A stretch of DNA of 64,000 nucleotides, taken from assembly GCF_022045235.1 (NCBI RefSeq), contig NW_027266266.1, positions 4,953,848 to 5,017,847 on the forward strand, in the 5' to 3' direction. Made by a program: the position numbers and the translations under genes. The stretch's first letter is position 1; each line of letters opens with the position of its first letter. Origin of the DNA: Haliotis cracherodii (Eukaryota). Positions 8,128-62,995 of the stretch are shown one piece after another. Under the pieces are notes generated by a model. The model saw only the letters and a program-made list of their open reading frames with translations, was not told where the DNA came from and did no database searches.

Positions 8128-10059
8128 TAACAACTTGACAACATAGCTTATTTTAAAACTTTATTAAAAAGAAATTTACAAATGTCATGAGGGACAGCAC
8201 CACATTTAAACAGCCACGTGTTCTTACAAGATGTTTTATCATGGTTTTGTGGCACCGTGACATGTTAACAATCGAACCTAACCCTTCAACGAGGATGATG
8301 TCACCTCAAGGTAAAACGTTTATACTTATTGAATGTATAGATATGAAATATTTATCGTCATTAATATCACTGGAATTTGCAGATCAAATCTGACAAGATC
8401 AAATGTGACCCAGATCAACTTTTCGATTGACTTGTTTGTACAGTTTAATTATGGTTTGATATCCCTGTGAAGACTATGCTTGTTTAGAAGGTATCAAATG
8501 AATACATCCAGAGCAGCATGGCTCAACCACATCTGTATATATCCATTCTCACGAAAGGCCGAAAGAAAGTTTACAAATTAAAATGACAAATGCAGACAGA
8601 ATTTGAAGCATGGCGGCAACCTGTGTGTATCCTTATCTATAAACACTAAACTTTTGAATTTTGAAACATTTGATCTGTACTTATTTGTATTCAGATGTAT
8701 ATATCCAGGGCAGCATGGCTCAACTACACCTGTATATATCCATCCATCTGATAGAGATCAAAATAAATTTCATATGACTGTTTTGGAGTAAGTGGTAATA
8801 GAACAGGGAAGTAAGAATTACGTTGTACAGGTGACGTTGAAAGACAATTATAACTGATTTGATTTGAAGATACTTAGTTAATTGTATCAACTGATATCTG
8901 ATGTTGTCAGCATCCTTTGTAACTATGATTATACAGATTGTTGTGTTGTCTTCATAGTGACAAGCACAGATATTGGAGCAGCACGGCTGAAGGGACACTC
9001 CAGTCCTTCAGAGTTCCTAAACATCGTGGAGGACAGAAGCTGGGTCCGCACTAGTCCATTGGTATTCGGGGGAAATGCCTGTTGGAGAGAGAGATACATT
9101 CGTTTTATATGAACATAGATGGAAGATGGTTATACATGCATGTGTATATTCATATCTCTAGTATCTTTATCTCCATTATCAACATTCGGCCTGTTCTGTC
9201 ATAACGTTAAGAAGTTAAGTCAGATGTAGCACCAAAACGAAACAAGGTAACAATGCATACATATTTCGCCTAAATCCAACTATTTGTGGAGAAGGTTTCA
9301 AGCCGCAGATGTGTAAAAGCATACATATGGCTACTGATCTCGCTTGGCTAGGCCTAGTGCCCTCGCAAAATAGTTTCGAAATTTATATCTCCAAAATTGC
9401 CAAAAAAGTATAAAATGCCTTAGTTACGTCGCAGTTCGACACTGATTTTCAGTATATAAGACCGTTCTTTTGATAACTGTAGGAATTATCCCTGTAGTTT
9501 ATCCAGATTCACGATGGTTAATTCTGATTCGATCGCCGAATTACAAGTGCGACGCCATGTTTGTTTATAAACACTGAAAGTAGTCCCTATTTGAATTTTG
9601 ATATTTGCATCTCTATCCGCATATGACCCCAACGGATATCGTTTTTATCCGTTGGCTTTATCCTGCTGAGAAACCTACCCATTATATGATAAATAATACT
9701 ATCTACTATTATCTACTCAAACCTTTAGCGGAGTTATAACATGATGGAAGCTGAAGAAATCACTCGAATATGTTGTTAGTCATGATTTCTCCATTATGGA
9801 AAATAGGTTAGGAGGTAAAACGTGAATATGAAAGCATGAGAATTAAAAATAAATGATCCGGGTATGTTGTACAAATATGGAAAGGCCAAATAAACACGCT
9901 GCCAAACATTTAAGTAGTAATTAGATAAACTAGGATCGCAACTTCACAAGACAATATTACTGTCTGAGTAACGAAACAAAAATATAATAGTGTAATGGTA
10001 ATATGTTTGGAGACTGGTACTAACATGCTTCCATACTGTGGTGCGCCACAGTGACTGCT

Positions 10060-13149: not shown

Positions 13150-13990
13150 GTTAAATTGCATGGATCTAGCGTTCATATACTAGTACTCACCATAGACTAG
13201 AGCGGAGGTGTGGTAGACGGTTGTGAATAGAATTTAGAAAAGTCTGCGAGTTCTGAATGTCTTAAGTTGTTTGGAACGGCCTGTCTATAAAGTAAGTGAC
13301 ACTTTTTAACCATCAACGCACAGTTTGAAACTTACCTTGTCATTTAGTTCTGTTCAACAAACATCCATCTTCGTTGTAGACTGATATTGCCAACACCCTA
13401 CCACAGCACCGCACATGATTAGGAAGAGACGTCTTCAACTCAGTGTATCAAGAAAACAAACTGAAATATTTTGAGGTGACGCAACCAGTAAGGTCTGACA
13501 CGCTCATTTGAATGCTGGTATTAAAATCTTTCACAACAATCCCCTGACTAAAGACGTTGTCCAAATACAAATTACCCGAGAAAATGTTTGTGAATACGAC
13601 CGAGTCATCGTTCAACTAGAAGGTGTTAGCGGGTGTTTCAGGCAGAAACTGAGCCATGAGACATGAAACACCCCTCAACACCTCAGAGCTGCCGAGTCAT
13701 CAGGAGGTACACATGGACACCATCAGGGACTTGTAGGAGGACGATCATGTCAAAAGCAGGATGTTGTACCAAGTTTTAAACATACATGTTAAGTTGGCAT
13801 CTTTGGATCATGCCAGTCAAGATAGAATGTTTTGAATAGTTTATGTATAAGATATATTGATGTCGAGTGTATCAGAGGGTGTCAATTCCTGCACATGAAG
13901 CGGCGTAATTGGCAGGTGTTGCAGAAGGTAACATGTCACCACACCTGAAGAAGAAACAATATTTTGTTAATTTCAGAATTATTCAATCAC
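13150..13990. repeat. segmental duplication, copy 2 proximal block
   Basis: see 10060-11070. Confidence 0.8.
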
Positions 13991-14479
13991 TTCTATAAAC
14001 ACACATGAAGATCAGATCACGTTTGTAAGTTGTTTTAGTGGACGGACGAGTAACGAGAATGTATGCACTAACATTGAACTGTACTATAAAGCATAAAATC
14101 AATCTTGTTTCAAATTGACGGGAAAATGTTTGCTTAATCAATTCCAAGAGAATAAATATATCGTTTATAACTATAGTTTAACTTACCGCATTTGAGGATG
14201 TAACAGCAGATTAACCTTGTCGCCAATGACAGCTTGTGGCCACCGAGGGTGGACACCTATGGCTGCCGGATGAACGAAGTCTGGTTGTTGATTACGATGC
14301 CTGCAGTGGTAAGGAGAAACATACCATTTAAACACCAGGGTGGAAACACCTATTCATTGACCAAGATACACACTAATCTACTAATCGACTAATCATCTCC
14401 CAATATCCATTTTACAATTTAAAGAGAGGTTGCCTCAGTGCCGAACAGTTAATCCATGTAATATATGTCGATGTATTCT

Positions 14480-28559: not shown

Positions 28560-29985
28560 GCTGCTGCCTGCATATAGCCAGGTAGAGGTTTACTGAAATG
28601 GCGCTTAAGAGACCACGCCACTGAGACTAAATAAGGAAAGTCGAAGGTGTATGTCAAATTGATCCATTCCAGGACGAATAACAAACAAAAATATACTCCT
28701 CACAAAAAGTAAGCAACAAGTATTATTTTCCGTTCAACATTCTCATCAGTGTTGAATGCCATCCATTTAGAACAAATTCAGGCAGGAGAATTACCTACGA
28801 ACACTCGACTTAAAGCCTTTTCCATGTAGATTTTCCTGATAACACTGATAACATCGCCTGAACACAACCACCCTCAAAACACACATGCAAAATGCACGAC
28901 ATCCATGTTTTACACACTTCACCCAAGCACCCTGATAGCTTAAAAACTGCCAGCAAGGGCAATTTGTCGACATTAACACTTTAGACATGGCTAGGTGTCA
29001 CTTAACGCCAATTGAGGTTGCTCAGATTGTTGGAATGGTACAGGGGGGTCTCACCCAAACTGCTGTTGCCAATCAGTGTCATCTCAAGAGCGATAACTCG
29101 ATACCATCAAACTGGACTGATGACAGAGAGACCACGCACAGGTCATCCAAGGGTGACAACTCCTCGTGAGGACCGGTATTTAGCCACTCTAGCCCGGAGA
29201 AACAGGTTTACTACGGCCGGGCTCTCCAGAATGACCTTCAGAGAATTGCAGGAAGCAGAGTCTCAACACAGACTGTAAGAAACAGACTTCACGCTCAGGA
29301 TCTGAGGTCCAGACGATCAGTACGACGTATCCCACTGCCTGCACACCATCGACAACAGAGACTTGCTTGGGCCAATCAACGCCGTAACTGGAGGGTGAAT
29401 AGCTGGCGTAACGTTCTCTTCACAGACGAGTCAAGATTCTGTAGGTAGGGCACGTGTGTGGAGAAACCGTAATGAACCGTAATGAACGACACGTCAACTG
29501 TACAATTGCTGAACACGACCAGTACGGAGGTGGAAGTTTGATGATCTGGGCTGGCATCAGGGTCATCAGACGTGGTACCATGACTGGAGTACGGTACAGG
29601 GACGAGATTCTCACACATGTGATCATTCCCCTGGCACAACAAGCAGGTCCTAACTTCATCTTTATGGATGATAATGCTCGTCCACATCGAGCAAGAGTTG
29701 TCACTGATCTTCTTCAGACCAACAATATCACGCATATGGACTGGCCTGCAAGGTCTCCGGATCTTAATCCCATTGAACATGCATGGGACATTCTTGGAAG
29801 GCGTGTTTATGGTCTTCATGTTCGTCCTCAGAATCTGGATCAACTTGAACAGGCCTTAAGGAGAGAATGGCAGAACATTCCACAACAGACACTTGATAGG
29901 CTTATCTGATCAATGCCAAGACGTGTAGAAGCTTGCATTCAAGCCAATGGTGGACTTGATGGTTGTTCATGATCCAAGCCTACCA
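28560..29985 (+). mobile_element. Tc1/mariner (Tc1-like) DNA transposon remnant; outer boundaries and TIRs not identified
   Basis: contains the transposase pseudogene; the 5' limit is a guess. Confidence 0.45.
28987..29909 (+). pseudogene. Tc1-family DDE transposase with at least two frameshifts. N-terminal HTH: MARCHLTPIEVAQIVGMVQGG...RYLATLARRNRFTTA. C-terminal DDE domain: ...ERHVNCT..GGGSLMIWAGI...FMDDNARPHRARVV...MDWPARSPDLNPIEHAWDILGRR...
   Basis: three overlapping ORFs in different + frames carry the classic Tc1 motifs (LFTDESRF, DDNARPH, SPDLNPIEH). Confidence 0.85.
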
Positions 29986-30275
29986 TGATGGTCGTTCATG
30001 ATCCAATCTTACCATTATGGTTGTTCATGATCCACACCCACAGTGATGGTTGTTCATGATCCACCCCCACAGTGATGGTTGTTTATGATCCACACCCACC
30101 GTCATGGTTGTTCATGATCCAATCCTACCGTGATGGTTATTCATGATCCACACCCACCGTCATGGTTGTTCATGATCCAAGCCTACCGTGATGGTCGTGC
30201 GTGATCCAAGGCTACCGTGATTGATGATCATGATCCACACCCACCGCGATGGTTGTTGGTGATCATTATCCCAAG
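29985..30275. repeat. minisatellite, 29-bp unit x about 10 (catgatccacacccaccgtgatggttgtt), starting inside the last codons of the Tc1 transposase
   Basis: direct read; the first unit overlaps ..GGLDGCS*. Confidence 0.85.
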
Positions 30276-30319
30276 ATTGTTGTTCATGATCCATACCCAT
30301 CATGATGTGATTATGTGTG

Positions 30320-32460
30320 TCCTTCATGACGGGTGTTCATGACCCATCATGAGGGGTTTATAGTGATCCCTATGATGGGATGGTGGGTGTTCATTGTGAT
30401 CCCTATCTGGGACGGTGGGTGTTCATTGTGATCCCTATCTGGGATGATGGGTGCTTATTGTGATCCCTATCTGGGACGGTGGGTATCCACCTTGATGGGT
30501 GTTCATTGTGATCCCTATCTGGGATGATGGGTGCTCATTGTGATCCCTCTCTGGGACGGTGGGTGTCCATCATGATGGGTGTTCATTTAGATCCCTATCT
30601 GGGATGGTGGATGTCCAACATGATGGGTGTTCATTGTGATCCCTATCTGGGACGGTGGGTGTCCACCTTGATGGGTGTTCATTGTGATCCCTATCTGGGA
30701 CGGTGGGTGTCCACCATGATGGGTGTTCATTGTGATCCCTATTTGGGACGATGGGTGTCCGTCATGACGGGTGTTCATTGTGATCCCTATCTGGGACGGT
30801 GGGTGTCCATCATGACGGATGTTCATTGTGATCCCTATCTGGGACGGTGGGTGTCCGTCATGACGGGTGTTCATTGTGATCCATATCTGGGACGGTGGGT
30901 GTCCACCATGATGGGTGTTGATTAGGATCCCTATCTGGGACAGTGGGTGTCCACCATGATGGGTGTTGTGATCCCTATCTGGGCACGGTGGGTGTCCGTC
31001 ATGATGGGTGTTCATTTAGATCACTATCTTGGGCAGTGGGTGACCATTATGACGGATGGATGTCCACCATGATGGGTGTTCATTGTGATCCCTATCTGGG
31101 ACGGTGGGTGTCCATCATGACGGATGTTCATTGTGATCCCTATCTGGGACGGTGGGTGTCCATCATGATGGGTGTTCATTGTGATCCCTATCTGGGACGG
31201 TGGATGTCCATCATGACGGATGTTCATTGTGATCCCTATCTGGGACGGTGGGTGTCCATCATGACAGATGTTCATTGTGATCCCTATCTGAGATGGTGGA
31301 TGTCCATCCTGACAGATGTTCATTGTGATCCCTATCTGAGACGGTGGGTGTCCATCATGACGGGTGTTCATTGTGATCCCTATCTGGGACAGTGGGTGTC
31401 CATCATGACGGGTGTTCATTGTGATCCCTATCTGAGACGGTGGGTGTCCACCATGATGGGTGTTCATTGTGATCCCAATCTGAGGCGGTGGGTGTCCATC
31501 ATGACGGGTGTTCATTGTGATCCCTATCTGAGACGGTGGGTGTCCATCATGACGGGTGTTCATTGAGATCCCTATCTGAGAGGGTGGGTGTCCACCATGA
31601 TGGGTGTTCATTGTGATCCTTATCTGAGACGGTGGGTGTCCATCATGAAGGGTGTTCATTGTGATCCCTATCTGAGAGGGTGGGTGTCCATCATGACAGG
31701 TGTTCACAGTGATCCCTATCTGGGACGGTGTATGTCTGTCATGATGGGTGTTCATTGTGATCCCTATCTGGGACGGTGGGTGTCCGTCATGTCAGGTGTT
31801 CATTGTGATCCCTATCTGGGATGGTGGGTGTCTGTCATGATGGGTGTTCATTGTGATCCCTATCTGGGACGATGGGTGTCCGTCATGACGGGTGTTCATT
31901 GTGATCCCTATCTGAGACGGTGGGTGTCCACCATGATGGGTGTTCATTGTGATCCTTATCTGAGACGGTGGGTGTCCATCATGACGGGTGTTCACAGTGA
32001 TCCCTATCTGAGACGGTGGGTGTCCATCATGACGGGTGTTCATTGTGATCCCTATCTGGGACGGTGGTTGTTCACCATGAAGGGTGTTCATTGTGATCCT
32101 TATCTGAGACGGTGGGTGTCCATCATGACGGGTGTTCATTGTGATCCCTATCTGGGATGGTTGGTGTCCACCATGACGGGGGTTTATTGTGATCCCTATC
32201 TGTGACAGTGGGTGTCAGTCATGACGGGTGTTTATTGTGATCCCTATCTGGGATGGTTGGTGTCCACCATGACGGGGGTTTATTGTGATCCCTATCTGTG
32301 ACAGTGGGTGTCAGTCATGACGGGTGTTTATTGTGATCCCTATCTGGGACAGTTAATGTCCACCATGATTGGTGTTCATTGTGATCCCTGTCTGGGATGA
32401 TGGGTGTTCATAGTGATCCCTATCTGAGATGGTGGGTGTCCATCACAACGGGTGTTTATT
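30320..32460. repeat. satellite, 60-bp unit x about 36 (ggtgggtgtccatcatgacgggtgttcattgtgatccctatctgggac)
   Basis: direct read; the unit resembles the adjacent 29-bp minisatellite; the long ORFs on both strands are artefacts of the 60-bp (3n) period. Confidence 0.9.
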
Positions 32461-35410: not shown

Positions 35411-35639
35411 TGAAAATGGTATTAATCCAGACTAGTACAAGCAGCCACACACATGCACATGTACCCGTACATGAATGCATGTAGCTACTTAAGTGCAATA
35501 ATCTTGAAAGCGAAGTTAAATCCCATTTCTTGCAACCTCATTTACCCTTTTGATAAGATTGGGAACTGGGACCTTTCTTTGAATCTCTCTCTGTGGAGAA
35601 GTCAATACACTTATGGTATTCCCTGTTCAATGAACAGTG

Positions 35640-35810
35640 CTAATGCAGCAAGTTAAGACCTTCATGGTGTTCCCCCGTGCAATGACAGGTGCACACTTAG
35701 CAAGTGAAGATGTTCATGGTGTTCCCCCATGCCATGAACGGTGCTCATACAGCAATGGTGCAATGAACAGTGCTCATGCAGCAAGTGAAGACGTTCTTGG
35801 TGCCCATGGG
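35640..35810. repeat. tandem repeat, about 48-bp unit x3.6; the KCTD-like CDS terminates inside the first unit
   Basis: direct read. Confidence 0.8.
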
Positions 35811-38845: not shown

Positions 38846-41800
38846 GTTCAGTGGAATTGCAGAGGTCTTCGAACCAATTTTAACGAGTTACAACTTTTAA
38901 TACAAGAGTTTACGCCATCAGAAATCTGTCTTCAAGAGACGTATCTCTAACAGACCGAAACCTTTTTGCGTCGGTACAGTTCTTATCATTCATTTTCTCG
39001 GCCAGGTGTTAAATCTACTGGATGATCCACTGTTTTGGTGAAGCAGGACGTGATCCACAGCCCTGTTTCACTTCAAACTCATCTTCAAGCTGTTGCAGTG
39101 CGACTAACTTTACACATAACCTTTACACTGAGTTCTCTGTATAGTTTCTCCCTCCTCTGTGCTTCAGAGATCGGATCTTCAAGCCTTATATGATCAGTTC
39201 CCTAAGCCCTGCATGATCATGGGTGACTTTAACGGATATAACCCATTATGGGGAAGTGTTAAAGTTAATGTTAAGGGGGAAGTACTTGAAGATCTTATTC
39301 CGATAACAATTTATGCATTTTCAATGATGGGTCTGTCACATCTGTCACTAACAGATTCAAATCTATTAAACAAATTTACTTGGTCGGTCCACGATGACTT
39401 GTGTGGATGCGACCATTTTCCTACAATATTAACAGCAAATGATCCATCTGGTGGAATTACTTTAGGATTAACACCTGATATGTTCAGGACTGTTACCGAC
39501 CCTTTTCAATCGTTTTCGGATAAGCTGAATGAAATTGCTCATATAACCATTCCTAAGTCCTCTGCAAATCCACACATTTGAAAACCATGGTTTAATAAAG
39601 AGTGCAAACAGAATAGTAAGTGCAGGAAAAAAGCGTAGAAATATTTCCGCAAATATCGAACTGTACACAATTTAAATCATGTTAAAAACACAAATGTCAT
39701 GGCAAGCCGTACATTCAAACAGAATAAGCGTAAGTCCTTGAGGAATTTTGTCACTAAAATTAATTCTCGCACACCAATATCCAAGGTGTGGAACACGATT
39801 GCAAAATTAAAGGCAAAGTATCAAAATCGAGCGTCCACCATCTCAAGGAAGGTGACCATTCTGTTAACAGATAAATTGGATATTGCTAATAAATTGGGCG
39901 AAACGCTGGCCAAACACTCTTCATCATCGAACTATGATGCTAAGTTTCAAAAATATCAGAAACAACAGGAAAAGAAGAGGTTTGGTTTTATTTCGGTAAA
40001 TGGAGAAGATTACAATGAGGTATTTTCGCTCCACCAGCTAAATACTGCCCAAGGTCAAGCGCACGATACTGCAGCGAGAGTGGATAATATTCACTATCAG
40101 CCTGAAGCATTTGCCTGATTCATGTTTAGAGACACGTCTTGATATATTTGATCGGATCACGACGTCAGGAGATTTTCCTCCATCGTGGCGTAATGCAATA
40201 GTTTTTTCCCATACCTAAACCTGGTAGGGACCATACTTTTGCATCTAATTATAGACCAATATCACCAACCAGCTGTGTGTGCAAAACCAAGGGAACGAAT
40301 AGTAAATAATCGGCTGGTGTGGTACTTGGAAACCAACAATATCTTAGCTAACATTCAGTGTGGTTTCCGTCAAATAGAAGTACCATTAACCATCTGGTAC
40401 GTTCAGAATCGTTTGTCAAAAATGCCGTTGTAAATAATCAGCATGCATTATCAATCTTTTTTTTATTTAGTAAAAAGCGTATGATACCACATGGAAGCAT
40501 GGTATTTTAAAAGATCTACATGATTTGGGATTAAGAGCTTGTCCGCCTCAATATATATCCCTTTCTTTAACAGACCGACATTTTCATGTTCGTGTGGGTT
40601 CCACCCTGTGTGACCATTATAATCAGGATCAGGGTGTCCCACCAGGCTGTATTTTGTCGGTGACTCTGTTTAGCATAAAGATTGATAGTCTGTCAAAGGT
40701 TTTAAATGATTCAATTGATGGTTCCCTTTTTGTGGACGATGTTAATATTCCATGTCGTGGCAAAAATATGCATACCATCGAGAGACAGTTGCAGCTGTGT
40801 CTCAATAAAATCCCAAAATGGTGTCTTGAAAATGGTTTTAATTTTTCAAAAGCTAAGACCAATTGTAGTCATTTGTGTAGGAAATACAAGCACCACAAGG
40901 ATCCAGAAGTATTTTTACATGGCACTCCTATCAAGGCTGTAGAAGAGTCCAAGTTCCTGGGTCTCATTTTCGATCATCATTTGACTCTTGAGCCACATAT
41001 TAATTATCTCAAAACTAAATGCCTGAAGGCTCGAGATTTGTTGAAAGTTGTTGCTGATACAAAGTGGGGAGGTGATCAGACAAGCCTCCTCCACTTGTAT
41101 AGGTCTCTGATCCGCTCTAAATTAGATTATGGCTCCATCGTTTATGGTGGAGCCTGTAAGAGCAATTTACACAAATTAGATTCAAGTCACCACCAGGGCC
41201 TAAGATTATGTCTTGGCGCATTTCGAACATCTCCCGTGGATAGCCAATACGTAATGTAGAAGCTGATGAACCATCTTTGAATCAACGGCGCTTTGAATCA
41301 AATTATCGCTTCAATACATTACAAAATTACATTCTAACCCATTAAACCCTGCTTACAAATGTGTTTTTGAACCCCTTTACGACGAACTTTTTCACAGTAA
41401 GTCTAAGCTCCACTAGGAATACGAATTAAACCCCACAGTACAGCTGCCAATATTGATTTAGATAATATTTCTCCTGTCAGTCTTTAATCTTCAACTTCTT
41501 GGCAACTTATCAGACCGGGAGTAGTCTTTACTTACACATTTTTAAAAATCAGACACAAATAATATATCAACAAGAATATATACAAGTTAGAACTAAATAT
41601 GAATCCCACCATTCTATTTTTAAAGATGGATCCAAGGATGGTGGCAGTCTCCAGTGCTGCTGTTATTATGCCGCATCATCCCGATTACCAGACCATAGCT
41701 CAATTTTTACTGCTGAAGCCAAGGCCATTTCAAAGGCTTTAGAATATATTCAAAAACAATCTAGCTGCAAAGGGTTTATCATCTTGTCAGATTCACTAGA

Positions 41801-42544
41801 TTGTCTACAGGCAATAAAAACGAACTCTTCAAGTCATCCATTCATTTAAGTTATTTTAGAATTATACAATGAACTTGCAACTGGCCAATACATCGTCTTT
41901 TGCTGGTTGCCCAGTCATGTTGGAATTGCAGGTAACACTATGGCTGATACATTTTGATAATACGCATTGTAAAAAGTAAGTGATTTCAATTTAGCAGAAT
42001 GATTATATAACTATGATTGTTAGTGGCTGTACCTTCAAAAGGAGTTGAAGTAACGTAAAATAATTGTCCCCCTGAAAGGGTACGTTAGTCCCAATACATT
42101 CAAAGTATGTTTCATTTTCCATGGTTTTAATCGTAGAATAATTGTAGGTTTTAAATCTTTCTAACAATCATCAGTAGCCAGAGGAATGGTGGAAATCCTG
42201 GTACCAAGCAGGAAGCAGATGTACCGTAAGTCCCCATGGTCCGTAGTATGGTGCGACTATGCTTGTCGTAAAACTAACCAACCAACCAACCGTAGTATGG
42301 TGGTCTAACTTTGGTTGCTGATGATCCATAGCCCATTTGTATAGTGTATCGTTATTTGTAGTTACATTTTTATGGTTACATGCTAGTTTTAAATCTATCT
42401 CTGTATTAATATAATCCTTTTACCGTCCCTCGTCAACAGATTTTATAGTCTATAATTATGTATAATTACTGCACAACTTGATTTAGTCACGTTATGGCTG
42501 CAATATTGCCGATGTGACTATAAATCTAAACTCACTCACTCACC
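38846..42544 (+). mobile_element. non-LTR retrotransposon (LINE), 5'-truncated and frameshifted. Contains an APE endonuclease (VQWNCRGLRTNFNELQLL..ICLQETYL; ..IMGDFNGYNPLWGS), a reverse transcriptase (..FVDDVNIPCRGKN..; 40525-41259), an RNase H (..IFTAEAKAISKALEYI..IILSDSLDCLQAIK; ..CWLPSHVGIAGNTMAD), a roughly 600-bp 3' UTR, and a tail ending (ctca)n
   Basis: domain motifs read from the ORFs at 38846-38950, 39159-39581, 40525-41259 and 41499-41960; the 3' UTR matches 5261-5806. Confidence 0.85.
42254..42289 (-). mobile_element. 36-bp SINE family A tail fragment (cgactatgcttgtcgtaaaactaaccaaccaaccaa) inserted in the LINE 3' UTR
   Basis: perfect 13-bp target-site duplication ccgtagtatggtg at 42241-42253 and 42290-42302. 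Confidence 0.75.
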
Positions 42545-50096: not shown

Positions 50097-51506
50097 CTAA
50101 GTAAAGCAATAGGGCAACTGGTCAGTCAGTGATCTCATCACCAGGGTGGGGTCAACCACGCCTCAACAATCACGAGAATTACTCATCCTCATGTACTGTA
50201 CATTGATGATATTATATTTGTGTTCATGTCATACTATGTTCACGACATCAGTGTCTAAATCCCGTTATTTCCTGAGTGGGAGCTTAAACATAGTATGACA
50301 TGAACACAAATATAATGTTCTATTTATTAACGAAGAAGATGTCTACATACAAAGACAAATTTTAGTGTTTACTTAAAAGGACAGCAAGTCGCAACAGTAG
50401 CAGAATCACAATTTATCGACGTCTTCAGCTATGATGTCGTGTCTCGTGTTACGTCATTCCAACCTCACTTCACAATAAGATTTGAATGACGTCAACAATG
50501 CCATCCGTATGACGGAGAAATACACTGTTGTCTCGTGACATGATCACACACTACGAGCACATATGATTTTATGAACTCTTATATGTTTGCCCTCTTAGGT
50601 AATTAAAATAATTACCCTTGACGAAGTCAAAATGAGAAAACAATGACCCGAGCCATGAGGAGGTCAGACCAGACCGAGGCTGAGGTCCGGTAAAACCGCT
50701 GAAGGGGTTGGGTCCGAGGGTCCTTGTTTTCGCATATTGACCTTGTCATTTTAATCAATCGTTATGTTGTACTGAAATTCACTTGAAAGTTTATGAAGTC
50801 TTTCAACCCTTCTCTGTTTCATTACAGTAACATAGCTGCGAACCGTAAAATGTTAATATGCTAGATGCCATCTTGTTTTCTAGCAGATGAGTCAGTATTC
50901 ATCACATGACAGGTCAATACTGATCATGTGACAGGTCATTCTTCGAGGTCAGTGTCAGTCACATGATTTGGGGGTCTACATTGAAATGTATTGTTTCGTT
51001 ACGTGGTACAGATTAATGAATGGAATTGCAAGATTCTTAATAGAGGTATAACAAGAATCATTGTCTGTAAACATTTAAATTTCTGAGAAGAGTGACTTTT
51101 CTCTAACATTGTTATTTTCCCAGTATCCATGACTACATAATGGCGGCTACTGATCTTGCGGACTTTCACATCGTAATATTTACTTTAATATGTAGAAAAT
51201 ACCAGCGATTTGTGTCAAACACTTCAGCTCCAGATATATCGCAATACATCGCAATACAGAAACTATCACAATATATTTCAAACACTTAATTATAAGTCAT
51301 ACTTCCAAATTTCATGTTTTCTAATTGCTTAAAATTTATATATATGATGAGTAGTTGTGCTGTACACAATTTATTTTCCAAAAACAGTAGTGTCATGAAA
51401 TAATATCAATCACTTTGAAAAAAGTTTGCCAGGCTTGAAGTTGTCAGACAAAATGGCATGTATTGTACCACTTAGGATTTTACTACTAGTCTCTCAATAG
51501 AAAATG

Positions 51507-51762
51507 TCAGTAAATGACCTGTAAATGACCTGTATATGTCCTGTAAATGTCCTGTAAATGTCCTGTAAATGTCCTGAATATGTCCTGTAGATCTTAATGT
51601 CTTGTAGAGGTCGCCTAAATGACCTGTAAATGACCTGTAAATGTCCTGTAAATGTCCTGTACATGTCCTGAATATGTCCTGTAGATCTTATTGTCTTGTA
51701 GAGGTCGCCTAAATGACCAGTAAATGTCCTGTAAATGTCCTGTAAATGTAGATGTAAATTAC
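51507..51762. repeat. tandem repeat, 11-bp unit (cctgtaaatgt) within a roughly 120-bp higher-order unit, starting at position +6 of the ASL intron
   Basis: direct read; the intron begins gtaatttacatctacatttacaggacatttacagg... Confidence 0.85.
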
Positions 51763-51822
51763 CTGGAGGTCCTTGTTATAGGTGCTGGGAATCCCCTTCA
51801 GGGACATCATGAACCCCGAACA
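51763..51822 (-). CDS. ASL: ASL exon: [20 protein letters not shown]
   Basis: matches human [20 protein letters not shown]; acceptor gttgcag|, donor |gtaatt. Confidence 0.9.
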
Positions 51823-52056
51823 CTGCAACATCACGGACAATACATCTGTCATGGGACTCATCACACAAGCAAGGGAGTAAACTCATGCTGCTTTCTAATT
51901 ACTCTTTATTGATTCTATTAGGACTCGTTGTTCAAGTGCTACACTGTGATCTCAGGCAGAACAGGGGAGTAATACAATCATCCCTATTTATCACAGTTTA
52001 ATTTGACTCATTTAAAAAACCAATCACTACAAAAACGACTTTTCCTAAAGTAACGT

Positions 52057-52216
52057 GTAGCGGCCATAAAATTTTCGAGTCCCGTGATGGGATTCGAACC
52101 ACGGACCTTCTGATCCGAGGTCGGACGCCTTGTCCACATGACCAAAGAGGTTAACCCCGTCAGCAAGCTGACAAGGTAAGGATGTCATCTGTGGGATGAC
52201 TCCACGCCCTGCTACA
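52057..52216 (-). mobile_element. SINE family D; the reverse complement has a tRNA-like head (..GGTTAACCTCTTTGGTCATGTGGACAAGGCGTCCGACCTCGGATCAGAAGGTCCGTGGTTCGAATCCCATCACGGGACTC)
   Basis: four copies, all in ASL introns in the same orientation as the gene. Confidence 0.7.
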
Positions 52217-52320
52217 TACTCCCCCGTCAACAGAAGGCACGTCCCGGGCCGCATAGTAGGGTACTGAGGCTTATTTTGCTCAAATTTGATATGAACGTGC
52301 TCAGCCCCACGTTGGGCGCC

Positions 52321-52483
52321 AATGTAGCGGCCATAAAATTTCCGAGTCCCGTGATGGGATTCGAACCACGGACCTTCTGATCCGAGGTCGGACGCCTTGT
52401 CCACATGACCAAAGAGGTTAACCCCGTCAGCAAGCTGACAAGGTAAGGATGTCATCTGTGGGATGACTCCACGCCCTGCTACA
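52321..52483 (-). mobile_element. SINE family D, second adjacent copy (a tandem pair about 275 bp apart)
   Basis: about 99% identical to 52057-52216. Confidence 0.75.
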
Positions 52484-52661: not shown

Positions 52662-53760
<1,099 letters not shown>

Positions 53761-54115: not shown

Positions 54116-54223
54116 TTGATAAACACACTTTTTGCTTATTACTATGCATCAGTGAATCTGACAAAACTACTGATGAATCATTCCATTCCGACAAAACTAC
54201 TGACTGAATCATAATTTTGAAAC

Positions 54224-55603
54224 AAAGCTCCACTATTGCTACAACACTGATCCATACTGACCTGTATGCGTCCGAGAGCGTGACAAAGCTCCACTACTGC
54301 TACAACACTGATCCATACTGACCTGTATGCGTCCGAGAGCGTGACAAAGCTCCACTACTGCTACAACACTGATCCATACTGACCTGTATGCGTTCGAGAG
54401 CGTGACAAAGCTCCACTATTGCTACAACACTGATCCATTCTGACCTGTATGCGTCCGAGAGTGTGACAAAGCTCCACTATTGCTACAACACTGATCTATT
54501 CTGACCTGTATGCGTCCGAGAGTGTGACAAAGCTCCACTATTGCTACAACACTGATCCATACTGACCTGTATGCGTCCGAGGGTGTGACAAAGCTCCACT
54601 ATTGCTACAACACTGATCCATACTGACCTGTATGCGTCTGAGAGTGTGACAAAGCTCCGGTATTGCTACAACACTGATCCATACTGACCTGTATGCGTCC
54701 GAGAGTGTGACAAAGCTCCACTATTGCTACAACACTGATCCATACTGACCTGTATGCGTCCGAGAGTGTGACAAAGCTCCACTATTGCTACAGCACTGAT
54801 CCTTTCTGACCTGTATGCGTCCGAGAGCGTGACAAAGCTCCACTATTGCTACAACACTGATCCATACTGACCTGTATGCGTCCGAGAGTGTGACAAAGCT
54901 CCGCTATTGCTACAACACTGATCCATACTGACCTGTATGCGTCCGAGAGCGTGACAAAGCTCCACTACTGCTACAACACTGATCCATACTGACCTGTATG
55001 CGTCCGAGAGCGTGACAAAGCTCCACTACTGCTACAACACTGATCCATACTGACCTGTATGCGTTCGAGAGCGTGACAAAGCTCCACTATTGCTACAACA
55101 CTGATCCATTCTGACCTGTATGCGTCCGAGAGTGTGACAAAGCTCCGCTATTGCTACAACACTGATCCATTCTGACCTGTATGCGTCCGAGAGTGTGACA
55201 AAGCTCCACTATTGCTACAACACTGATCCATACTGACCTGTATGCATCCGAGGGTGTGACAAAGCTCCACTATTGCTACAACACTGATCCATACTGACCT
55301 GTATGCGTCCGAGAGTGTGACAAAGCTCCGCTATTGCTACAACACTGATCCATACTGACCTGTATGCGTCCGAGAGTGTGACAAAGCTCCACTATTGCTA
55401 CAACACTGATCCATACTGACCTGTATGCGTCCGAGAGTGTGACAAAGCTCCACTATTGCTACAATACTGATCCATTCTGACCTGTATGCGTCCGAGAGTG
55501 TGACAAAGCTCGACTATTGCTACAACACTGATCCATTCTGACCTGTATGCGTCCGAGAGCGTGACAAAGCTCCACTAATGCTACAACACTGATCCATACT
55601 GAC
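54224..55603. repeat. minisatellite, 60-bp unit x about 23; each unit is the last 29 nt of the ASL exon at 55604-55718 plus the first 31 nt of the intron
   Basis: unit ctgtatgcgtccgagagYgtgacaaagctccactaYtgctacaacactgatccatactgac versus the exon end ctgtatgcgtccgagagcgtgacaaagct|GAACTCC. Confidence 0.9.
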
Positions 55604-55718
55604 CTGTATGCGTCCGAGAGCGTGACAAAGCTGAACTCCTTGGTGGAGTAGAGGATGAGGTCCTCCGCCCAGCGGCTGAGGTGAGTGCTGAGCAGTGACG
55701 CCCAGAACAGAAACTCCA
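55604..55718 (-). CDS. ASL: ASL exon: (V)[37 protein letters not shown](S)
   Basis: matches human [39 protein letters not shown]; acceptor tgtttcag|, donor AG|gtcagt. Confidence 0.9.
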
Positions 55719-57309: not shown

Positions 57310-57900
57310 AATTAGTATATAATAGGGGTGAAACGATACAGCAAGGTCATGATATGATACTTATCCCAATACATAGGTCACTATACGATATGTATCGCGG
57401 TACGCATATTTACGTCAATTCGCATGGAAACTTCTTGACCATAAATATTTCAGAGAAAGTTCCAAGGGAAAAGCAACATGTAGACACATGTTTGTAGCGG
57501 CTGTTGTGAATAGTGAACTTGAAAGGCTAATTACAACACATTTTGCAATATCTGACTGACAACACCACTGGGATTAAGGTGGGGGTGGGGCAGTGGATGG
57601 AGGTGGGTGTGTTGGGGTGTGGGTGGGGGTAAAGGTGTGGTTGTGGATAGGGAGGGGGTGAGGGTGTGGTTCGGGGTGGGGATAGAGGTGTGGTTGTGGA
57701 AAGGGGCGGGAGTGGGGGTGGATGGGGGTGGGGGTGGGGTTGGGGGTAAAGGTGTGGTTGTGGATGGGGGCGGGGGTGTGGGTCATTAAACAAGTAGTAA
57801 GTAACTTATTTTAGCAAGTGTATCAACTTGAATGAAAAATGAATTGTGTATTGCATAGTCACATGAAAACTCCCGATGCACCGATGTATCAGTTCACCCC
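57310..57900 (+). mobile_element. interspersed repeat R1, copy 2, with an internal G-rich minisatellite (57570-57790) expanded
   Basis: collinear similarity to 45370-45900. Confidence 0.6.
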
Positions 57901-60456: not shown

Positions 60457-60618
60457 TGTAGCGGTCAAAAGATTTCAGAGTCCCGTGATGGGATTCGAAC
60501 CACGGTCCTTCTGATCATAGGTCGGACGCCTTGTCCATGTGACCAAAGAGGTTAACCCTGTCAGCAAGCTGACAAGGTAAGGATGTCATCTGTGGGACAA
60601 CTCCACGCCCTGCTACAT
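60457..60618 (-). mobile_element. SINE family D copy
   Basis: similar to 52057-52216. Confidence 0.7.
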
Positions 60619-60792: not shown

Positions 60793-60947
60793 GACTTGGC
60801 CCTGTTGAGGATGACGCTGATGAAGTCGGTGAGGTAAGTGCGGAGCTGCAGCTGGGCGTCTCTCATCCACAGCCTCATGTCGGTGGCCACCTGGTCATTG
60901 CGGCTCCGGCCCGTGTGCAGCTTGCCTCCTGCTGCACCGATCAACTC
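60793..60947 (-). CDS. ASL: ASL exon: [51 protein letters not shown](S)
   Basis: matches human [30 protein letters not shown]....LLWELIRTMVDRAEAE; acceptor tgtttcag|, donor TC|gtgagt. Confidence 0.9.
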
Positions 60948-62150
60948 CTGAAACATTCACACCATCGTCACCTGCACTGACGCTTCTCTTAATTTAGTCA
61001 TCCTGCTGCACCGATCAACTCCTGAAACATTCACACCATCGTCACCTGCACTGACGCTTCTCTTAATCTAGTCATCCTGCTGCACCGATCAACTCCTGAA
61101 ACATTCACACCATCGTCTCCTGCACTGACGCTTCTCTTAATTTAGTCATCCTGCTGCACCGATCAACTCCTGAAACATTCACACCATCGTCTCCTGCACT
61201 GACGCTTCTCTTAATTTAGTCATCCTGCTGCACCGATCAACTCCTGAAACATTCACACCATCGTCTCCTGCACTGACGCTTCTCTTAATTTAGTCATCCT
61301 ACTGCACCGATCAACTCCTGAAACATTCACACCATCGTCACCTGCACTGATGCTTCTCTTAATTTAGTCATCCTGCTGCACCGATCAACTCCTGAAACAT
61401 TCACACCATCGTCTCCTGCACTGACGCTTCTCTTAATTTAGTCATCCTACTGCACCGATCAACTCCTGAAACATTCACACCATCGTCTCCTGCACTGACG
61501 CTTCTCTTAATTTAGTCATCCTACTGCACCGATCAACTCCTGAAACATTCACACCATCGTCTCCTGCACTGAAGCTTCTCTCAATTTAGTCATCCTGCTG
61601 CACCAATCAACTCCTGAAACATTCACACCATCGTCACCTGCACTGACGCTTGCTTCTCTTAATTTAGTCATCCTGCTGCACCAATCAACTCCGGAAACAT
61701 TCACACCATCGTCACCTGCACTGACGCTTGCTTCTCTTAATTTAGTCATCCTGCTGCACCGATCAACTCCTGAAACATTCACACCATCGTCACCTGCACT
61801 GATGCAGCTCTTAATTTAGTCATCCTGCTGCACCAATCAACTCCTAAAACATTCACACAATCGTCACCTGCACTGACGCTTCTCTTAATTTAGTCATCCT
61901 GCTGCACCAATCAACTCCTGAAACATTCACACCATCGTCACCTGCACTGACGCTTCTCTTAATTTAGTCATCCTGCTGCATGATCAACTCCTGAAACATT
62001 CACACAAGCATGTCTATCGCCACCTGCACTGACGTGTTTCTTAAGTTAGTTATCTTGTTGCACCGATAAGCTCCTGAAGCATTGACAAAACAATGTCCAT
62101 CGTCTCCTGCACTGAAGTTTTTCTTAACTTAGACCTTATCCTAATCCTGA
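60948..62150. repeat. minisatellite, about 62-bp unit x about 17 (degenerating after 62000); each unit is the last 14 nt of the ASL intron (the acceptor) plus the first 20 nt of the exon at 60928-60947
   Basis: unit ctgaaacattcacaccatcgtcacctgcactgacgcttctcttaatttagtcatcctgctgcaccgatcaactc versus the junction ..cctgctgcaccgatcaactc|ctgaaacattcac. Confidence 0.9.
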
Positions 62151-62847: not shown

Positions 62848-62995
62848 AATCACAGTTTCCAGTCCCGTTATGGGATTCGAACCACCTTCTGATCCGAGGT
62901 TGGTCAACATGAACAAAGAAGTTAATCCTGTTAGCAAGCTGACATAGTAGAGATGTCATCTGTGGGACTTATTTTGCTCATTTAATATGGTCGTT
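62848..62995 (-). mobile_element. SINE family D, degenerate copy directly upstream (transcript sense) of the 62816 exon
   Basis: cagtcccgttatgggattcgaaccacc..ctgatccgaggt..gttaatcctgttagcaagctgaca. Confidence 0.55.

What the first reader, a model, noticed from the sequence alone, without database searches (positions are those of the whole stretch)
51507..51822. An 11-mer microsatellite with a higher-order unit starting at position +6 of a fourth ASL intron
The intron after the exon at 51763-51822 begins gtaatt|tacatctacatttacaggacatttacagg... An 11-bp (acatttacagg)n array, organised in a roughly 120-bp higher-order repeat, starts directly at the donor. Four of the 13 ASL introns in this window therefore have tandem arrays abutting a splice junction. 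Combined with the arrays that begin inside the KCTD-like and Tc1 stop codons, this suggests a locus-wide or genome-wide tendency for slippage arrays to be seeded at junction sequences, or that arrays are tolerated there.
Basis: partly seen in the sequence, partly recalled or inferred. Interest (0 to 1): 0.55.

Follow-up and report, generated by a model that had tools for sequence, protein, structure and literature searches.

The report
Splice-site-seeded minisatellite in abalone ASL intron
An 11-bp tandem repeat in an abalone argininosuccinate lyase intron grew out of the splice donor itself, one of four such arrays in this gene; the type is known from lancelets and a few human genes, and I found no mollusc report.

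Summary
On the minus strand, exon 51763-51822 ([20 protein letters not shown]) ends CAG|GTAATT. An 11-bp array (TRF 51502-51749, 23.5 copies) runs in register through the donor to the last exon base: G|GTAATTTACA matches the unit variant GGTCATTTACA at 10/11. The higher-order period is 94 bp, not about 120. With an 11-bp unit it is a minisatellite, not a microsatellite.

The window is most likely Haliotis cracherodii (ASL protein 100% identical). H. rufescens has the same array at the same donor, five times longer. H. rubra and H. asinina have only a single proto-unit there (CAG|GTAATGTACAGG), so the array was seeded from the donor sequence.

The other three ASL arrays also contain their junctions: 61 bp (28 exon nt plus donor, 22 pseudo-donors), 32 bp (starts at intron +1) and 74 bp (acceptor plus 21 exon nt). 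Four of six arrays lie within 14 nt of a junction (shuffle P about 1e-4; generous null P = 0.002). H. rubra has three further two-copy junction duplications. Littorina and Pecten ASL have none. Amphioxus ASL has four.

This is the known "mirage" or F7-IVS7 type of boundary-spanning minisatellite. It is probably neutral. A genome-wide bias remains untested.

The parts
51763..51822 (-). ASL exon (10th of 14 in the window; coding exon 12 of 16), 60 nt, phase 0/0, encoding [20 protein letters not shown]
   Evidence: The translation is 100% identical to P0001. The same 20-aa exon is present in Littorina and Pecten.
51753..51763 (-). Junction unit G|GTAATTTACA: the last exon base plus intron +1 to +10. 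It is the authentic donor (CAG|GTAATT, 8/9 match to the U1 consensus) and also unit 0 of the array.
   Evidence: It matches the array variant GGTCATTTACA at 10/11 and the consensus unit at 9/11.
51502..51752 (-). 11-bp minisatellite, consensus GGACATTTACA (= ACATTTACAGG). About 20 recognisable units plus two 39-bp divergent blocks. Four units carry CAG|GTCATT pseudo-donors.
   Evidence: TRF, parse, donor scan, motif search.
51522..51749 (-). 94-bp higher-order repeat, 2.4 copies at 95% identity. Each copy is a 39-bp block (GGTCATTTAGGCGACCTCTACAAGACAATAAGATCTACA) plus five 11-mers.
51431..51500 (-). Distal flank (ctattgagagactagtag...gacaacttcaagcc), homologous to the sequence about 22 nt (H. 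rubra) to about 80 nt (H. asinina) downstream of the donor. It marks the array as an insertion of about 250 bp.
   Evidence: Alignment A1.
52662..53656 (-). Sister array of 32 bp x 31. The first unit begins at intron +1 (AAT|GTATGT) of the preceding exon's donor. It holds 8 identical and 12 near-identical pseudo-donors.
54222..55632 (-). Sister array of 61 bp x 23. The unit is the last 28 nt of the exon (..SFVTLSDAY) plus CAG|GTCAGT plus 33 intron nt. It holds 22 pseudo-donors.
60927..62005 (-). Sister array of 74 bp x 14.5. The unit is about 53 intron nt plus acceptor tttcag| plus the first 21 exon nt (ELIGAAG). It holds about 12 pseudo-acceptors, and the authentic site is the last copy.

Best explanation
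The feature is a boundary-spanning ('mirage'-type) minisatellite. It arose in the common ancestor of H. cracherodii and H. rufescens by tandem duplication of the first ~11 nt of the intron. In the ancestral sequence these 11 nt were bracketed by the 4-nt direct repeat CAGG (CAG|GTAATGTACAGG). The likely birth event was slipped-strand mispairing or a microhomology-mediated tandem duplication. The array then grew by replication slippage or unequal exchange into species-specific higher-order forms: 94 bp in cracherodii and 22/44 bp in rufescens. It most likely has no function. It would be tolerated because the spliceosome uses the exon-proximal donor, most cracherodii units have lost the GT, and any use of a pseudo-donor gives a premature stop and so, presumably, nonsense-mediated decay. 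Shown here: the position and register of the array, its local origin, its absence from outgroups, its copy-number divergence, and the same architecture at three other junctions of the gene. Inferred: the slippage mechanism, neutrality, and exclusive use of the authentic site.
For: The array runs in register through the donor. H. rubra and H. asinina have one proto-unit flanked by CAGG...CAGG, and both flanks are homologous. H. rufescens has the same first 27 intron nt, but its array is 1257 bp against 248 bp, while array-free introns are about 92% identical. The motif occurs nowhere else in the window. There is no Rfam hit and the RNA fold z-score is +0.40. All pseudo-donor uses give premature stops. 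The sister arrays contain exon sequence plus splice sites. Junction enrichment is P about 1e-4 under a block shuffle and 0.002 under a seed model. There are three independent two-copy junction duplications in H. rubra. The known mirage-rich amphioxus shows four junction arrays in its ASL. Literature: PMC3087553, PMC3902484, PMC1557585.
Against: No RNA data were available, so exclusive use of the authentic donor rests on gene annotation and on reading-frame logic. Only 1-4 exon bases are shared with the unit, so the 'spanning' is minimal compared with the sister arrays. The exact birth event is blurred: cracherodii and rufescens have GTAATTTACA+TCTACATTTACA where the outgroups have GTAATGTACAGG. 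Persistence of the array across about 8% intron divergence could also reflect a function.
Confidence: 0.8

Rival explanations
1. Chance adjacency: an ordinary intronic minisatellite that happens to lie next to the donor and has no causal link to the junction.
For: The window is very rich in tandem arrays (140 TRF rows). The gene was picked out after the fact. Under the generous seed model the P value is only 0.002.
Against: The junction itself is an in-register 10/11 unit. The outgroups show the progenitor unit at the donor. Three sister arrays contain their junctions. There are further independent events in H. rubra. Littorina and Pecten have 0 arrays spanning or overlapping an ASL junction among 17 arrays.
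Confidence: 0.07
2. A functional cis-element: the array acts as a splicing enhancer or decoy, a U1-recruiting platform, or a set of recursive splice sites that modulate ASL splicing.
For: The array is retained in two species. Units of the form tttacag|GTCATT juxtapose acceptor-like and donor-like motifs.
Against: It is absent from H. rubra and H. asinina, which have the same exon and nearly the same donor (CAG|GTAATG against CAG|GTAATT). Length differs five-fold and the unit variants differ between species. Acceptor scores of the units are 4.3 or less, against an authentic median of 10.7 and a background 95th percentile of 7.6. There is no stable RNA structure.
Confidence: 0.08
3. A satellite carried in by a transposable element that inserted next to the donor.
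For: The window holds Tc1-like and LINE elements with attached arrays, and SINE-like copies lie in ASL introns.
Against: The unit is derived from the local ancestral sequence. There are no other copies in the window. No extra non-homologous sequence separates the array from its flanks.
Confidence: 0.02
4. An assembly artefact: the repeat was mis-assembled or expanded during assembly.
For: Tandem arrays are error-prone in assemblies. PMC3087553 reports a mis-assembled mirage in the amphioxus draft genome.
Against: The same array is found at the same junction in two species assembled independently. Only the copy number could be wrong.
Confidence: 0.03

Closest known systems
Amphioxus 'mirage' minisatellites (Adh3, TnC, globins BflGb6/9, PGBD5)
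   Same: These are tandem repeats whose units span an intron-exon boundary at either a donor or an acceptor. Units are 10-160 bp, and many but not all carry GT/AG. Copy number is unstable, and splicing is reportedly unaffected (PMC3087553, PMC3902484). Amphioxus ASL itself has four such arrays, one at the acceptor of the orthologous exon.
   Different: The present case is in a different phylum (gastropod mollusc). The target unit shares only 1-4 exon bases with the exon, and most cracherodii units lack GT. Here the origin is resolved by outgroup species that lack the arrays.
Human F7 IVS7 37-bp VNTR (and IFI6/6-16, CBS IVS13, LMNB2, PDGF)
   Same: The first monomer contains the exon-intron junction (4 exon nt in F7). 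The authentic donor is followed by pseudo-donors, and only, or mainly, the most upstream site is used (PMC1557585).
   Different: The F7 pseudo-sites are exact copies. In the 11-mer array none is exact in cracherodii (four CAG|GTCATT) and one is exact in rufescens. The human genes each have a single such array, whereas this gene has four. No splicing data exist for abalone.
Intron gain by tandem duplication across AG|GT proto-splice sites (the Rogers model, as cited in PMC3087553; PMC3265369)
   Same: A tandem duplication that includes AGGT creates extra usable splice signals.
   Different: No new intron is created here. The intron position is old, being shared with Littorina and Pecten. The duplications only lengthen an existing intron.

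Membership tests
Boundary-spanning minisatellite ('mirage' / F7-IVS7 type) | Head-to-tail tandem array with a unit of about 10 bp or more inside an intron | tested here: met
   TRF finds period 11 x 23.5 and period 94 x 2.4. The motif occurs 11 times against 0 expected.
Boundary-spanning minisatellite ('mirage' / F7-IVS7 type) | The terminal monomer contains the authentic exon-intron junction | tested here: met
   Unit 0 is G|GTAATTTACA, in register and 10/11 to a unit variant. Only 1-4 exon nt are included, comparable to the 4 nt in F7 (PMC1557585).
Boundary-spanning minisatellite ('mirage' / F7-IVS7 type) | The unit is derived from the local junction sequence, not imported | tested here: met
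   H. rubra and H. asinina carry a single proto-unit, CAG|GTAATG(T/G)ACAGG, with homologous flanks.
Boundary-spanning minisatellite ('mirage' / F7-IVS7 type) | The splice-site sequence is reiterated in internal monomers (many, not necessarily all) | tested here: inconclusive
   In cracherodii 4 of about 20 units are CAG|GTCATT and none is an exact copy; most are CAG|GACATT. In rufescens about 48 units carry GT, one of them exact. This meets the amphioxus definition but not the strict F7 description of identical pseudo-sites.
Boundary-spanning minisatellite ('mirage' / F7-IVS7 type) | Copy-number instability or polymorphism | tested here: met
   The array is 248 bp in cracherodii and 1257 bp in rufescens, while flanking introns are about 92% identical. 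Within-species polymorphism is not testable here.
Boundary-spanning minisatellite ('mirage' / F7-IVS7 type) | Only the exon-proximal authentic site is used in mRNA | not testable with these tools
   No RNA data were available. The NCBI protein model uses the authentic sites, and pseudo-site use gives premature stops.
   The unit is 11 bp.
Recursive splice site (ratchet point) | A strong 3' splice site juxtaposed to a 5' splice site | tested here: not met
   Unit acceptor PWM scores are 4.3 or less, against an authentic range of 4.0-15.2 with median 10.7.
Transposon-borne satellite | Dispersed copies or terminal element structures | tested here: not met
   There are no other copies in the 64-kb window, and the flanks are contiguous with the outgroup sequence. 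The genome-wide distribution is not testable here.

The most novel reading that the evidence does not exclude
Abalone genomes, at least the north-east Pacific lineage, may share with amphioxus a genome-wide mutational bias that preferentially generates and expands tandem duplications spanning splice junctions. This would imply a mechanistic coupling between splice-site sequence or co-transcriptional splicing and DNA breakage or slippage. It would have arisen convergently in two distant phyla and would be a significant driver of intron growth.
Probability: 0.3. Interest if true: 0.75.

Novelty: new member of a known kind. Interest (0 to 1): 0.45.

Why it matters
One abalone gene carries four natural arrays of decoy splice sites: 22 and 20 pseudo-donors, about 12 pseudo-acceptors, and the degenerate 11-mer array. 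That makes it a ready-made system for studying splice-site choice outside vertebrates. The four arrays make up about 25% of the intron sequence of this ASL gene, and they largely explain why the coding span is about 16-18 kb in cracherodii and rufescens against 12.6 kb in asinina. Repeated exon fragments also mislead spliced aligners; my own mapping was fooled in H. rufescens and amphioxus. The arrays are probably hypervariable markers in H. cracherodii. Recurrence in Haliotis and in amphioxus, but not in Littorina or Pecten, suggests a lineage-specific propensity that a genome-wide scan could settle.

Tried and rejected
- **Amphioxus origin.** I first suspected amphioxus because of the mirage pattern. 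The homolog search rejected this: the ASL protein is 100% identical to Haliotis cracherodii ASL.
- **Recursive splice sites.** Rejected, because the unit acceptor scores are weak.
- **Structured or known RNA.** There are no Rfam hits, ARAGORN finds no tRNA, and the fold z-score is +0.40.
- **Selection disarming pseudo-donors.** The idea that GT was selected to GA is suggested by cracherodii, but rufescens has about 48 GT-bearing units.
- **Failed look-ups.** P0001 (cracherodii) and P0010 (Gigantopelta) are not on record. The original mirage paper (Canestro 2002, PMC117041) is not held.
- **Literature.** Searches found no mollusc report of boundary-spanning arrays.
- **Exon mapping.** A greedy exact exon mapper mis-placed exon pieces into array copies, so nucleotide-based exon maps were used for Haliotis.
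- An off-by-one printed +75 for the nearest pseudo-acceptor; the true offset is +74, a frameshift.
- **Genome-wide test.** It was not feasible, because no whole abalone genome or annotation is reachable with these tools.

Full report
**Observation.**
The gene lies on the minus strand. The exon at 51763-51822 is preceded by ttgcag| and followed by |gtaatt. I assembled 14 exons in the window, all with GT-AG borders, into a 424-aa open frame. This frame hits Pfam Lyase_1 and ASL_C2. It is 100% identical over its whole length to 'argininosuccinate lyase-like [Haliotis cracherodii]', 99% to H. rufescens, 97% to H. rubra and 96% to H. asinina. The window is therefore abalone, most likely black abalone.

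TRF reports an 11-bp array at 51502-51749 (23.5 copies) and a higher-order array of period 94 at 51522-51749 (2.4 copies, 95% match). Autocorrelation peaks at 94 (0.82); the value at 116 is 0.67. The dimer motif occurs 11 times in the window, all inside the array, against 0 expected.

**Anatomy.**
Read from the last exon base, the sequence is G|GTAATTTACA, then TCTACATTTACA, then GGACATTTACA units. These units are interrupted twice by a 39-bp block, GGTCATTTAGGCGACCTCTACAAGACA(A/T)TAAGATCTACA. One such block plus five 11-mers makes the 94-bp higher-order unit. The junction 11-mer matches the common variant GGTCATTTACA at 10/11. The array therefore begins at exon position -1, not at +6, and the authentic donor is its first unit. 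In cracherodii only four internal units keep a donor-like CAG|GTCATT, and most are CAG|GACATT.

**Origin.**
I fetched the orthologous loci of H. rufescens (L001), H. rubra (L002) and H. asinina (L003) and mapped all exons.
- H. rufescens has the identical first 27 intron bases. Its array is 1257 bp, organised as 22/44-bp dimers (GGACATTTACA / GGTTATATACA).
- H. rubra starts the intron CAG|gtaatgtacaggccagctag, and H. asinina CAG|gtaatggacaggacag. Neither has an array.
- The sequence that follows the cracherodii array (ctattgagagactagtag...gacaacttcaagcc) aligns to the outgroups about 22 nt (H. rubra) to about 80 nt (H. asinina) downstream of their donors.

The array is thus an expansion of about 250 bp from the donor-proximal 11 nt, which in the ancestral state were bracketed by CAGG...CAGG. 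The 20-aa exon and this intron position are shared with Littorina and Pecten, so the donor predates the array. Array-free introns of cracherodii and rufescens are about 92% identical, whereas array length differs five-fold.

**The other three arrays.**
- The 61-bp array (54222-55632) repeats the last 28 exon nt (..SFVTLSDAY) plus CAG|GTCAGT, and holds 22 pseudo-donors.
- The 32-bp array (52662-53656) starts exactly at intron +1 (AAT|GTATGT). It holds 8 identical and 12 near-identical pseudo-donors.
- The 74-bp array (60927-62005) repeats the acceptor tttcag| plus the first 21 exon nt, and the authentic site is the last copy.

All three are shared with rufescens at different copy numbers and are absent from rubra and asinina, whose single-copy sequence is recognisably the progenitor for the 32-bp and 74-bp units. 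Any use of a pseudo-site gives a premature stop.

**Is the junction association more than chance?**
Six TRF arrays (score 50 or more) lie in the window's ASL gene, and four are within 14 nt of a junction. In 100,000 within-intron block shuffles, 11 reached four (P about 1e-4). A more generous null assumes a seed unit dropped uniformly that may straddle a junction; it gives P = 0.002.

Two caveats apply. The 14-nt threshold and the choice of gene were both made after seeing the data. The cracherodii and rufescens arrays are one set of events, not two.

Independent support comes from H. rubra, which has three separate two-copy duplications:
- 46 bp spanning the donor of coding exon 2, with 17 exon nt;
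- about 44 bp spanning the same acceptor that carries the 74-bp array, with 10 exon nt and different breakpoints;
- a perfect 33 bp x 2 ending 4 nt before another acceptor.

ASL orthologues of Littorina and Pecten have the same 16-exon structure. None of their 17 arrays spans or overlaps a junction; the only one within 14 nt is a 4-bp microsatellite 12 nt from a Littorina donor. Amphioxus has four of seven arrays on junctions, one of them at the acceptor of the orthologous exon.

**What it is and how it works.**
The structure matches a described class. [quoted passage not shown] 2002). In humans, the minisatellites of F7 IVS7, IFI6, CBS, LMNB2 and PDGF have a first monomer that spans the exon-intron boundary (PMC1557585). 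In F7, only the most upstream donor is used, through 5'-to-3' oriented scanning (PMC1557585).

I infer that the abalone array arose by slippage or a microhomology-mediated tandem duplication, and that it grew by slippage or unequal exchange. I also infer that it is neutral, because the exon-proximal donor is chosen and mis-splicing would be cleared by nonsense-mediated decay.

I found nothing pointing to a function:
- no Rfam family;
- no tRNA;
- no unusual RNA structure (z = +0.40);
- weak acceptor scores, which argue against recursive splicing;
- no sign of a mobile-element origin.

**Novelty and limits.**
Literature searches found no report of such arrays in molluscs. This is therefore a new member of a known kind. 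It is notable for four arrays in one gene, for recurrence within the genus, and for a clean outgroup-resolved origin. No RNA evidence was available.

Noticed in passing
window 54222-55632 (-): A 61-bp array of 23 copies whose unit contains the last 28 nt of an ASL exon plus the donor CAG|GTCAGT. This gives 22 near-perfect decoy donors directly downstream of the real one.
   Followed up: yes
window 60927-62132 (-): A 74-bp array of 14.5 copies, plus a degenerate 83-bp extension, whose unit holds the acceptor tttcag| and the first 21 exon nt. The real acceptor is the last copy. Each unit also contains a donor-like GTGCAG|GTGACG.
   Followed up: partly
window 52662-53656 (-): A 32-bp array of 31 copies that starts exactly at intron +1. 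Its first unit keeps the ancestral 'ggaagag' seen in the outgroups, while internal units have 'ggtagag' (the array edge is not homogenised).
   Followed up: partly
window 35628-35808 (-): A KCTD gene (BTB_2 + KCTD_C) ends ...SSLAA-TGA at 35776-35774. A 52-bp repeat (about 2.5-3.5 copies) has a first unit that covers the last codons and the stop, so it is a coding-end analogue of the splice-junction arrays.
   Followed up: partly
window 29006-32443 (+): A frameshifted Tc1-like transposase (HTH_32, DDE_3) is followed by about 2.5 kb of 29-, 32- and 48-bp arrays. These arrays begin at 29957, within its last codons.
   Followed up: partly
window 52056-52217, 52323-52483, 60457-60618, 62856-62967: Copies of a tRNA-like, SINE-type element of about 162 bp (containing ggattcgaaccac) lie in ASL introns and upstream of the first ASL exon in the window. 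ARAGORN and Rfam call nothing there.
   Followed up: partly
window 39132-41846 (+): Non-LTR retrotransposon ORF fragments (Exo_endo_phos_2, RVT_1) lie between the KCTD and ASL genes.
   Followed up: partly
L002 4066-4155; about 9360-9433; 13970-14036: H. rubra ASL has three young two-copy duplications at splice junctions. They are independent of the cracherodii/rufescens arrays, and one hits the same acceptor with different breakpoints.
   Followed up: yes
L005 2430-2478, 3800-4004, 4828-5105, 7155-7476: Amphioxus ASL carries four junction-spanning arrays. One is a 31-bp array that includes the acceptor and 18 nt of the exon orthologous to the target exon.
   Followed up: partly
L006 (Patella caerulea ASL): The limpet ASL maps as only three coding exons, against 16 in Haliotis, Littorina and Pecten. 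This suggests massive intron loss or a partly retro-processed gene.
   Followed up: no
window 57578-57783 (-): A low-complexity array (G-rich on the plus strand) in another ASL intron is shared with H. rufescens. It is the only sizeable ASL array that is not at a junction.
   Followed up: no
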